The position numbers and the translations under genes were made by a program. The notes under the pieces are model-generated. The model saw nothing but the letters and a program-made list of their open reading frames with translations, searched no databases and was not told where the DNA came from. From a virus (lineage: Duplodnaviria > Heunggongvirae > Uroviricota > Caudoviricetes): a DNA stretch of 64,000 nt. Position 1 is the first letter of the stretch; each line of letters begins with the position of its first letter. Positions 4,701 to 59,832 of this stretch are shown here, piece by piece. The stretch lies in IMG/VR virus record IMGVR_UViG_3300037245_002365; one strand, given 5' to 3'.

Positions 4701-5507
4701 ATGGAACACTATTTTAGATTAATAGCTAATTATAAACCTCTTACCAAAAAAGAGGAATTATCCCTATTTTTAAAAGCTAAAGGTGGGGACGATAGAGCAA
4801 AAGATAAATTACTAAATGCAAATTTAAAATTTGTTGTATCTACTGCTAAGAAATATCAGAATCAAGGACTTACATTACAAGAACTTGTTGCTGATGGTAA
4901 CTACGGGTTGATGAAGGCATACCATAAATTTGATGTCGGAAGAGATGTTAAATTTATAACATATGCTGTATGGTGGATACGCCAAAGCATCATCAATTCT
5001 ATTCATGAGCACGCTAAGTTAATTAGATTGCCTTTGAATAAAATAACCAACGTAACCAAACTAGCAAAAACTAAAGAACGCCTAGAGCAGAGGCTTGGAA
5101 GAGCGCCAGATAACGATGAATTATTAGATGAACTCGGAGATAATTATGCTACGATACTTAGAGATAGTATGTTTAATTATCAGGTTATTGCTCTTGATGA
5201 GCCTCATGCAGATAATGGAACTACATTAGATAATGTAATTCCGGCAGAGCCAACTTCGCAGGAAATGGCTATTGAGGCATCGATATTAAAGCAAGAGTTG
5301 GAGAGCGTCTTAATAGACTTTACCCAACGAGAAAAAGATATTCTTTATATGTATTATGGCATCGAACAAGTTCGACCATATACTCTAAAGGAGATTGGCG
5401 TTGACATGGGATTAACCCGTGAACGAATTCGCCAAATAAAAGAAAAAGCTTTAACTAAACTAAGACGTAAACACAGAGCCGATAGGTTACGAGGTTACGT
5501 CAGTTAA
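4701..5507 (+). CDS. Phage-encoded sigma-70 family RNA polymerase sigma factor (no region 1.1)
   Basis: NLKFVVSTAKKY, DGNYGLMKA..KFD, KFITYAVWWIRQSI (region 2), IRLPLNK, TLKEIG..MGLTRERIRQI (region 4.2). Confidence 0.95.
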   Translation: MEHYFRLIANYKPLTKKEELSLFLKAKGGDDRAKDKLLNANLKFVVSTAKKYQNQGLTLQELVADGNYGLMKAYHKFDVGRDVKFITYAVWWIRQSIINSIHEHAKLIRLPLNKITNVTKLAKTKERLEQRLGRAPDNDELLDELGDNYATILRDSMFNYQVIALDEPHADNGTTLDNVIPAEPTSQEMAIEASILKQELESVLIDFTQREKDILYMYYGIEQVRPYTLKEIGVDMGLTRERIRQIKEKALTKLRRKHRADRLRGYVS

Positions 5508-55897: not shown

Positions 55898-56359
55898 ATG
55901 ACTGACAATAATGATCGTAAACCTGCCTTAAGAGACGATGTCGATGGAGGCACCCCGTGGTATGTTCGTGTGAGTTTTCTTATCCTTTTCTGCATTCTAG
56001 TGGGGTATACTTACGCAGCCACTCGTGATAACCATATGCGTTTAGTTACAGGATTGGAATCCTGTGAAATAATTATGCGTGATGGCGAGCATGGGAAGTT
56101 TGACTTGACATATGTCTGGTCAGGCGATCTGTCGTACGAGATTAAGGGCAAGTTTATACTTGATCCTTATTTTGCGGATAGGATGGAAGTGTTATATAAC
56201 GATAAGTACTTATCAACATTCTTGTTTGATAATATCAAAACGTTTGTTGACTCCGACAGTGTTTCTGTTGGAACCATTCCTATTGTTGAACACACTGACC
56301 TTATTGAGGAGATTGATATAATCACTATTGGTATATTAATGCCTAGTCGAGGTTTGTAA
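55898..56359 (+). CDS. Membrane-anchored hypothetical protein
   Basis: One TM helix near the N-terminus; SD AGAAAGGA. Confidence 0.6.
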   Translation: MTDNNDRKPALRDDVDGGTPWYVRVSFLILFCILVGYTYAATRDNHMRLVTGLESCEIIMRDGEHGKFDLTYVWSGDLSYEIKGKFILDPYFADRMEVLYNDKYLSTFLFDNIKTFVDSDSVSVGTIPIVEHTDLIEEIDIITIGILMPSRGL

Positions 56360-56389
56360 TTAAGTTTGAGAACCTGTATGGGATCAGGA

Positions 56390-56420
56390 GGAAGTGGGCG
56401 GCTTCGGCCGTCCGTTTCCT
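56390..56420 (+). other. Stable GC-rich hairpin with cUUCGg tetraloop (terminator or RNA-stability element)
   Basis: GGAAGTGGGCGGC-TTCG-GCCGTCCGTTTCC, intergenic. Confidence 0.55.
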
Positions 56421-56443
56421 TTCCCTTTACATAAGGAAATAAT

Positions 56444-56953
56444 ATGCCTACTAATAGAAGTGAAGTTGCATGGTTTTTTAGAGAGCAAATAAAAAACGCA
56501 GAAAGAATGAACATGGATTTTGGTTATCAAGAAAACCATTATGCGAGAAGTATTATTTCTAGAAGTAGGAATATTCTTTGTGGTATGTTTAGTTCGGTCG
56601 ATATAGGATCATTTCCTAGATATGATGAGGACGTAATCTCCGATTTTGAAGGCTTTAGCGATTTTGATAGTTGTGGTTCTTGTCCTTTGCGAATTCCTGG
56701 ATGTACAAGATTTAAGGCTATACGAGAATTAATTGGTGCACAATTAGAATATTACAATCGTTATCGTCGCGTTGTTAACACTGATGAGCCACGAACAGTA
56801 GAAGAGAAAGCTGCTAGAAAAAAACTCATAGAAAAGTATAAAGTATATGGAGAGCTCCTGAAGAAGATTTGGGAATTAATAAAACCTCTTTCATATAAAC
56901 GATTTACTAAAGCAGGATTTATACCATTTGAAGAGCTAGAAAGTCTTCTATAA
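56444..56953 (+). CDS. Hypothetical protein with Cys cluster
   Basis: CGSCPLRIPGC. Confidence 0.55.
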   Translation: MPTNRSEVAWFFREQIKNAERMNMDFGYQENHYARSIISRSRNILCGMFSSVDIGSFPRYDEDVISDFEGFSDFDSCGSCPLRIPGCTRFKAIRELIGAQLEYYNRYRRVVNTDEPRTVEEKAARKKLIEKYKVYGELLKKIWELIKPLSYKRFTKAGFIPFEELESLL

Positions 56954-56955
56954 TT

Positions 56956-56965
56956 GGTATAAGAA
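56956..56965 (+). promoter_or_regulatory. GGTATAAGAA motif, copy 7
   Basis: Exact 10-mer immediately before a structured RNA candidate. Confidence 0.7.
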
Positions 56966-56970
56966 CTATA

Positions 56971-57217
56971 TGAAGAACAATAAGCCAGAGATGCGCTGAA
57001 ACACAGCTTCAACTCATAGTTTGTTTTTGATTCGTACTGATGGTTTCTTAATCTTCTCTTATGGATTAAGGATGTGCGATTAAACACCTATGTTTCAAAT
57101 AAATACCATGTAAAAAATACAAAAGAAAACACTCGCAAGGGTGCATAAGAGCTCGAACAGGTTCGGCTGCTTTGCTGTGTGCTGAAGGCCGACTTAGCGT
57201 CTCTGGTTTGTTCTTCA
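56971..57217 (+). ncRNA. Candidate ~250-nt structured RNA (ncRNA or 5' leader)
   Basis: 5' end pairs with 3' end (10+8+6 bp); internal hairpins including a GCAA tetraloop; no plausible CDS. Confidence 0.55.
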
Positions 57218-57242
57218 CATTAACTACACAAAGGAATTAATT

Positions 57243-57530
57243 ATGGATTTAAAAGGAAAAATTACAAAATTTGGAGAAGAGCCCGTAGAAGTTGATTTAT
57301 GGCTTAATACTACTGATTTAGAAAATGGAATTACACAATATCTTATTAGTTGTAGACGTGATCAACTTGCTTTAGCAGCTCCTCCGTCAGGCGATTTAGC
57401 TAAAAGAGTGTTTGAATCGCATGAAAGATTTTTAGCTGAAGCTGATGATCGTTATATTCGTCAGGCGTTCGATGAGGAAGCGTGGAAGTATGAATGGGCT
57501 GATAAGATGATTGCAGCAAGTGGAGAATAA
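57243..57530 (+). CDS. Hypothetical protein
   Basis: SD AAAGGA. Confidence 0.6.
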   Translation: MDLKGKITKFGEEPVEVDLWLNTTDLENGITQYLISCRRDQLALAAPPSGDLAKRVFESHERFLAEADDRYIRQAFDEEAWKYEWADKMIAASGE

Positions 57531-59261: not shown

Positions 59262-59832
59262 TGAGTGTTATAGTGTTAGACTGCTATGCAGTCTTTACTA
59301 CATACAGGTGGTTGCCATGCAGCCCCAAGGTCACTGTAGGCATTATGACACGCAAAAGCTTTTTTTAATTAGCATAGTGATTCCTTTCGATAATCTATGC
59401 AAAATGGAGTGGAGTAGGTAGAGTACGTGTGATATCCGCTCATCAGACAGTGTAGTGCCTGATTATTGTTGGTTACATTGTTCACGCATATTCCTTATTT
59501 CACTCCTATTTTTTTGATAATGCAACGCCATGAAGCCGTATAGGCGAAGAGAGTCACTCGCTACAGAAATCCGGACTTCGCGAAAGCCTTGAGCCGTCAG
59601 TAAAGTAGCAAAGTGCGTAACGCACACCCATTATCAAATTTTTAGATCGTCTACACACGGTTGTTGGGCTGGAGGGTCGACCACGCAAAACAGCTATATA
59701 CCGCCCATATCTCATTGGTATGGGCAAAAATTATAGGTACCCGACTTTGACGGTGCCTGTTAGAGAGGTGAACACCAATACTGTTCACCTCTTGGACGTC
59801 TTTCTATTGGTAACACAGTAACGCTGTGTTTT
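59262..59832 (+). ncRNA. Candidate ~570-nt structured non-coding RNA
   Basis: No ORF of 60 aa or more; at least eight predicted helices, one long-range helix, possible 5'/3' closure; own promoter motif and terminal hairpin. Confidence 0.6.

What the first reader, a model, noticed from the sequence alone, without database searches (positions are those of the whole stretch)
56971..57217. ~250-nt RNA whose 5' and 3' ends pair, starting right at a GGTATAAGAA promoter
Seen: TGAAGAACAA (56971-80) pairs perfectly with TTGTTCTTCA (57208-17), continued by GCCAGAGA/TCTCTGGT and CGCTGA/TTAGCG. Inside are TTAATC..GATTAA, CACTC-GCAA-GGGTG and TCGGC..GCCGA hairpins. The helix begins 5 nt after the motif and ends just before the SD of the next gene. 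Inference: a discrete ncRNA (6S-like decoy, protein sponge, RNA anti-CRISPR or antitoxin) or a regulatory leader.
Basis: partly seen in the sequence, partly recalled or inferred. Interest (0 to 1): 0.7.

Follow-up and report, generated by a model that had tools for sequence, protein, structure and literature searches.

The report
Orphan folded RNA of marine phage
A large uncultured marine-sediment phage carries a 248-base non-coding stretch that starts at a predicted transcription start and is predicted to fold with its two ends zipped together; it matches no catalogued RNA family, has no detectable relative, and its job is unknown.

Summary
The 5'/3' duplex (56971-57217) is the strongest long-range duplex among 12,720 window positions and among 257 promoter copies in this phage and its relatives. 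The + strand folds at z = -4.5. GGTATAAGAA is a lineage-wide -10-like motif; its pyrimidine-purine phase over 221 copies puts the start at A56970, so the helix begins at +2. An inner hairpin is independently stable (z = -3.1), and a weakly supported pseudoknot may join its loop to 57144-51. No homolog was found in Rfam, about 2.5 Mb of related phages, 152.6 kb of the phage's own genome or pattern scans, so covariation is untested. There is no RNA data. No terminator follows, so the RNA is formally the head of the 57243 operon, whose ribosome-binding site stays open in every fold. Best reading (0.45): a discrete, end-protected, protein-binding RNA cut from that transcript; the target is inferred, not shown. 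Main rival (0.27): a cis-acting stability or RNase III leader. It fails the testable features of 6S, CsrB/RsmY, retron RNA and a MITE. The scan noted similar-sounding RNAs in other phages, but no sequence look-alike.

The parts
56956..56965 (+). GGTATAAGAA promoter box (TATAAG at -12..-7, no conserved -35), right after the stop codon of ORF 56444-56953
   Evidence: 9 exact copies in the window, all + strand; strand-biased in relatives; position profile of 221 copies
56970..56970 (+). predicted transcription start (A, preceded by T)
   Evidence: T 0.68 at offset +13 and purine 0.91 at offset +14 from the motif start in 221 copies; inferred, not mapped
56971..56999 (+). P1 5' arm (10 bp, 3-nt bulge, then 11-14 bp)
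57000..57014 (+). J1/2, 15-nt mostly single-stranded joint
   Evidence: mean unpaired probability 0.62
57015..57092 (+). P2, long irregular hairpin (about 26 bp) with an 8-nt loop at 57055-62
   Evidence: z = -3.14, 0/300 shuffles; helix probabilities 0.45-0.93
57093..57129 (+). A-rich, mostly single-stranded segment (23 of 37 nt are A)
   Evidence: unpaired 0.77; composition
57130..57143 (+). P3, 5-bp hairpin with GCAA (GNRA) tetraloop
   Evidence: p 0.91
57144..57151 (+). candidate pseudoknot strand, 8 Watson-Crick pairs with 57056-63 (P2 loop)
   Evidence: helix list; duplex -7.9 kcal/mol; 7 bp or more in 11/400 shuffles, test not like-for-like; weak
57157..57193 (+). P4, poorly defined 3' hairpin (57163-68 with 57187-92)
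   Evidence: p 0.5; z = -1.2
57194..57217 (+). P1 3' arm
57218..57245 (+). 25-nt A-rich spacer with AAAGGA ribosome-binding site (57230-35) and ATG of the 95-aa ORFan 57243-57530
   Evidence: site unpaired 0.75-0.86 in all folds; resembles ordinary leaders of this promoter class; protein has no relatives

Best explanation
A discrete, about 248-nt structured non-coding RNA of the phage that acts in trans by binding a protein. Step 1 (supported by sequence statistics): RNA polymerase starts at A56970 from the GGTATAAGAA box. Step 2 (predicted): the first 30 nt zip onto 57194-57217, leaving one unpaired 5' base and enclosing P2, an A-rich strand, a GNRA hairpin and possibly a pseudoknot. Step 3 (inferred): with no terminator, the RNA is made as the head of the 57243 operon and freed by a cut in or just after P1 (host RNase III, or endonuclease plus 3' trimming). 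The phage's tRNAs, which lie among protein genes, must be processed out in a similar way. Step 4 (inferred, weakest): P1 protects both ends, and the exposed A-rich and J1/2 strands bind and titrate a host RNA-binding protein as a decoy or scaffold, rather than pairing with mRNA targets.
For: The helix starts at +2 and is the strongest long-range duplex in the window and among 257 promoters. The + strand folds better than the - strand, with 7 G-U pairs among 65 in the model. P2 is significant on its own, which a simple 5' protective hairpin would not need. The element fills the 289-nt intergenic gap except for promoter and leader, and removing it leaves an ordinary-looking promoter plus 26-nt leader. 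Most of this phage's 20 promoters have 23-80-nt leaders. The ribosome-binding site is open with or without the 5' arm. Single-stranded segments have no antisense match in 152.6 kb of the phage beyond shuffles. The genome carries at least 27 tRNA genes among protein genes.
Against: No homolog, so no covariation. The interior as a whole is not more stable than shuffles, and the 3' domain is not significant. No terminator follows 57217. Nothing identifies a protein partner, the A-richness is common in this AT-rich genome, and the host is unknown.
Confidence: 0.45

Rival explanations
1. Cis-acting 5' leader of the 57243 operon. P1 shields the 5' end from decay and/or is an RNase III site whose cleavage sets the stability of the downstream mRNA; the interior has no role in trans.
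For: No terminator after the helix. The folding signal is dominated by P1. B. subtilis RNase III cuts 10-36-bp duplexes formed across up to 505 nt (PMC11780869), and P1 is 21-24 bp across 247 nt.
Against: The ribosome-binding site is not sequestered in any tested form. Other operons under the same promoter use short leaders. A 190-nt interior with its own significant hairpin is more than this role needs.
Confidence: 0.27
2. 6S-like decoy that traps host RNA polymerase holoenzyme so that the phage's own sigma factor takes over.
For: The 5' half has the order closing stem, 15-nt bubble strand, long apical stem. The phage encodes an RpoD-like sigma factor (4701-5507), also found in 5 of 5 relatives.
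Against: 6S RNAs are about 200-nt rods (PMC8876501). Here none of 2000 sampled folds has fewer than 3 hairpin loops, and the 3' side holds 100 nt. No Rfam 6S match at E up to 10.
Confidence: 0.07
3. Relic of a mobile or excisable element (MITE, intervening sequence or degenerate intron) inserted at the start site; the inverted ends are a DNA-level feature.
For: It sits like a module between promoter and a normal leader and has inverted ends.
Against: Single copy in 152.6 of 228 kb. No obvious target-site duplication. The irregularities are G-U pairs and bulges that favour the + strand RNA. No Rfam intron match. No contig lacking the element in the one DNA run (contigs drop rare variants).
Confidence: 0.06
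4. Antitoxin or RNA anti-CRISPR acting on a neighbour or on a host Cas complex.
For: It is promoter-proximal and upstream of small ORFans, like some type III and AbiF arrangements (own knowledge).
Against: No tandem repeats, no Rfam CRISPR or antitoxin match, and the neighbours match no family. The 50-codon antisense frame has no ribosome-binding site and was not called as a gene.
Confidence: 0.06
5. Second template RNA, used in trans by the lineage's retron-type reverse transcriptase.
For: Paired ends as in retron a1/a2. An RT is present in 10 of 25 related records.
Against: No RT gene among those annotated within about 95 kb downstream. In relative G004 the candidate retron RNA appears to have CTTAGC at the end of the 5' arm (my reading); here that motif lies in the 3' arm. 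No long msd-like hairpin and no similarity to the RT regions.
Confidence: 0.04
6. Chance inverted repeat without function.
For: No conservation seen; interior z = -1.25.
Against: Top-ranked duplex in 128 kb of scanned sequence, beginning at one of 9 start sites (about 1 in 1000 by arithmetic), plus the independent P2 signal.
Confidence: 0.05

Closest known systems
GOLLD and ROOL RNAs (phage and prophage structured RNAs of unknown function; PMC12286853)
   Same: Phage-encoded, non-coding, multi-helix RNA of unknown function in a tRNA-rich phage; pseudoknot possible.
   Different: 248 nt, against 659 nt (ROOL env-120) and often over 800 nt (GOLLD); no Rfam match; about 50 kb from the nearest tRNA seen; no covariation evidence.
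6S RNA (RF00013)
   Same: Closing stem from the 5' and 3' ends, a short 5' single strand, then a long irregular hairpin.
   Different: Multi-branched rather than a rod; 100-nt 3' segment; 248 nt; no Rfam match.
Long-range RNase III substrates in mRNAs (PMC11780869); RNase III-processed early phage mRNAs of T7 and SPO1 (own knowledge)
   Same: A 21-24-bp duplex closing about 200 nt at the head of a transcript.
   Different: Cleavage not shown; the helix starts at +2; the enclosed region has its own significant hairpin.
Retron msr-msd RNA
   Same: Paired ends; the lineage has a retron-type RT.
   Different: Not next to an RT; branch-site motif on the wrong arm; no msd hairpin.

Membership tests
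6S RNA | Match to the Rfam 6S models | tested here: not met
   no 6S hit at E up to 10
6S RNA | About 200-nt rod: one closing stem, central bubble, one apical stem | tested here: not met
   definition in PMC8876501; 0/2000 sampled folds with fewer than 3 hairpin loops
6S RNA | Binds housekeeping holoenzyme and templates pRNA | not testable with these tools
   needs biochemistry
CsrB/RsmY-type sponge | Many GGA motifs exposed in loops (own knowledge) | tested here: not met
   2 GGA (57063, 57070), both in the P2 stem
Retron RNA | Adjacent to or co-transcribed with an RT gene | tested here: not met
   no RT among the genes annotated in the flanks or about 95 kb downstream
Retron RNA | Branching G in a TTAGC-like motif at the end of the 5' arm, plus an msd hairpin | tested here: not met
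   motif only in the 3' arm; G004 comparison is my reading
GOLLD/ROOL | Match to the Rfam models; length over 550 nt | tested here: not met
   lengths in PMC12286853
Translational switch (cis leader) | Alternative fold that sequesters the ribosome-binding site | tested here: not met
   site unpaired 0.75-0.86 in five truncations; ligand- or protein-induced folds not modelled
RNase III processing stem | Duplex of 10-36 bp, may be long-range | tested here: met
   P1 21-24 bp; range from PMC11780869; necessary, not sufficient
RNase III processing stem | Paired cuts with a 2-nt 3' overhang | not testable with these tools
   no RNA reads
MITE | Multiple copies and a target-site duplication | tested here: not met
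   one copy in 152.6 of 228 kb; no duplication seen
Type I / III antitoxin, RNA anti-CRISPR | Cognate toxin or tandem repeats; CRISPR-repeat-like sequence | tested here: inconclusive
   no repeats or Rfam match; neighbours are ORFans, so a new toxin is not excluded
RNase P RNA / tmRNA / tRNA-like | Rfam or ARAGORN match, T-arm | tested here: not met
   a short P4-like look (57159-66 with 57189-95) lacks the RNase P topology
Conserved structured RNA family | Compensatory changes among homologs | tested here: inconclusive
   the copies compared (L101, L356, L357) are identical to the window; no other homolog found

The most novel reading that the evidence does not exclude
A new class of phage RNA that traps host RNA polymerase or another core expression factor. 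It would be a branched, pseudoknotted functional analogue of 6S RNA, made from the phage's own promoter class by a phage that carries its own RpoD-like sigma factor.
Probability: 0.1. Interest if true: 0.85.

Novelty: new member of a known kind. Interest (0 to 1): 0.4.

Why it matters
Large phages carry many structured RNAs of unknown function, and this is a well-delimited candidate with a predicted start, ends and fold, so it can be made and tested directly. If it binds polymerase or a defence protein, it would be a new RNA route to host takeover. As it stands it is a single-genome orphan, which limits what it shows.

Tried and rejected
Homolog searches, all negative: Rfam; blastn of phages and plasmids; DNA patterns in viral contigs (16/20, 35/39, 65/71) and metagenomes; a GTDB pattern gave 10 hits in unrelated bacterial genomes, at about the chance level and not examined further. 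A one-sequence covariance model over related phages found nothing, but has limited reach. nhmmer's best hit (G030) lay in coding DNA. Local alignment to 101 long promoter leaders gave scores within the null; that list is inflated for TGA-recoding relatives. The 95-aa neighbour has no relatives. No RNA holder listed; the one DNA run may be the source. No whole genome was held; I walked the contig to 152.6 of 228 kb and did not reach the DUF7873-linked RNAs noted by others. An RT homolog search did not return this phage's RT. Considered by eye and rejected: hammerhead, group II intron domain V, K-turn, phi29 pRNA, bulge-helix-bulge, Y RNA Ro-binding motif. The first 12 hits of a paper search for the promoter motif were irrelevant. 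Some early minus-strand protein references were shifted by one codon, without effect on family calls.

Full report
Context. The window comes from a large tailed phage: terminase, tail sheath and PolA-type polymerase, on a 228-kb JGI contig. The only sequencing run listed is a marine sediment metagenome that may be the source. Terminase relatives at 40-63% identity gave 71 loci, of which I held about 2.5 Mb. The element lies in the 289-nt gap between ORF 56444-56953 and ORF 57243-57530. Neither ORF matches a protein family, and the 95-aa one has no relative among 5.8 billion proteins.

Observation. The + strand folds at -75.6 kcal/mol, z = -4.52, 0/200 shuffles; the - strand gives z = -2.83. 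The 5'/3' duplex ranks first of 12,720 positions in the window and first of 257 promoter copies in this phage and its relatives. The interior alone is not significant (z = -1.25). Hairpin P2 is significant on its own (z = -3.14, 0/300), and the 3' domain is not.

Promoter. GGTATAAGAA occurs 9 times exactly, all on the + strand. It is strand-biased in relatives, for example 20:0 in G037, and GGTATAAGA is 23:2 in G001. Over 221 copies there is no -35 signal, but T is enriched 13 nt and a purine 14 nt after the motif start. That is sigma-70-like geometry with TATAAG at -12..-7, which puts +1 at A56970 and the first pair of P1 at +2 (inference). The phage encodes an RpoD-like sigma factor with regions 2, 3 and 4 (4701-5507), present in 5 of 5 relatives. 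Whether it or a host sigma reads the motif is not known.

Anatomy. P1 has 21-24 bp with a 3-nt bulge. It encloses a 15-nt joint, the hairpin P2, a 37-nt segment with 23 A, a GCAA-capped hairpin and a loosely defined P4. New here: the P2 loop (57056-63) is complementary over 8 nt to 57144-51, a candidate pseudoknot. Such matches of 7 nt or more arose in 11 of 400 shuffles. My scoring gave the real sequence only 5 on its minimum-energy fold, because a weak helix covers three of the bases, so this support is weak. No terminator follows. The last 25 nt before the ATG resemble ordinary leaders of this promoter class, and removing the element leaves a normal-looking promoter-leader unit. The ribosome-binding site is 75-86% unpaired in the full transcript and in four truncations.

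Homologs. None were found in Rfam, phage and plasmid records, or pattern scans of viral contigs and metagenomes. A covariance model over related phages and alignment to other promoter-driven leaders were also negative. It is single-copy in the 152.6 kb of its own genome that I could walk. The other assemblies compared are identical to the window. Covariation, the usual proof, is therefore unavailable. A one-sequence model would miss diverged relatives, so absence is not shown.

How it most likely works. I favour (0.45) a discrete RNA made as the head of the operon, released by processing, protected by P1, and acting by binding a protein through its exposed single strands. The start site and fold are predicted from statistics; release, stability and protein binding are inferred. 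Reasons: the interior carries structure beyond what a protective stem needs, the ribosome-binding site is not switched, and no antisense target stands out in the phage. The main rival (0.27) is a cis-acting leader. P1 fits the size of long-range RNase III substrates, 10-36 bp across up to 505 nt (PMC11780869). The two readings are not exclusive, since RNase III could be the releasing enzyme; no RNase III domain was found in 5 relatives, so it would be the host's.

Comparison with known RNAs. 6S RNAs are about 200-nt rods (PMC8876501). This RNA shares the 5' order of parts but is always branched in sampling, so it is not a member, though a 6S-like role is not excluded. It has too few exposed GGA motifs for a CsrA sponge. 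It is not placed or built like the lineage's retron RNA. It is far shorter than GOLLD and ROOL, the best-known phage RNAs of unknown function (PMC12286853).

Verdict. The feature is real at sequence level and very probably a transcribed, folded RNA element. It matches no catalogued family, but it is a single-genome orphan of a kind that large phages are known to carry, with no expression, covariation or partner evidence. Earlier scan notes describe comparable promoter-driven RNAs with closing helices in this and other phages, but no sequence look-alike. Novelty: new member of a known kind. Interest 0.4.

Noticed in passing
G004 (L122-L132), G052 (L380-L390), G054 (L391-L392), G017 (L279-L282): These relatives have in-frame TGA aligned mostly to Trp of the window's proteins (14, 11, 18 and 5 cases), so part of the lineage seems to read TGA as Trp. 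The window's phage and G001 show no such pattern.
   Followed up: partly
window 4701-5507 (+): RpoD-like sigma factor with regions 2, 3 and 4 and no region 1.1; a sigma-70 region 2 match is present in 5 of 5 relatives. Candidate reader of the GGTATAAGA box.
   Followed up: partly
window 37047, 37758, 38570, 52670, 55352, 55672, 56956, 59249, 60128: The promoter class has a fixed T-then-purine start 14 nt from the motif start and no -35 element over 221 copies in the lineage.
   Followed up: yes
window 59262-59832 (+): Second long ORF-free, strongly folded stretch after a GGTATAAGAA box; no similarity to this RNA or to the relatives' leaders.
   Followed up: partly
window 56386-56424 (+): Strong GC-rich hairpin with a UUCG loop between ORFs 55898-56359 and 56444-56953; terminator or processing site.
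   Followed up: no
L094:2250-3110 (-) (G001): About 870-nt ORF-free multi-hairpin region after a GGTATAAGA box, with a near-perfect 28-bp inverted repeat; not next to the RT gene.
   Followed up: no
L129:8600-9103 (-) (G004): About 500-nt structured ORF-free region after a GGTATAAGA box, followed by a tRNA-like gene.
   Followed up: no
L403:14580-14840 (+) (same phage): About 245-nt RNA with tRNA-like paired ends and a T-arm; its 3' end looks tmRNA-like to me, but ARAGORN did not call it.
   Followed up: no
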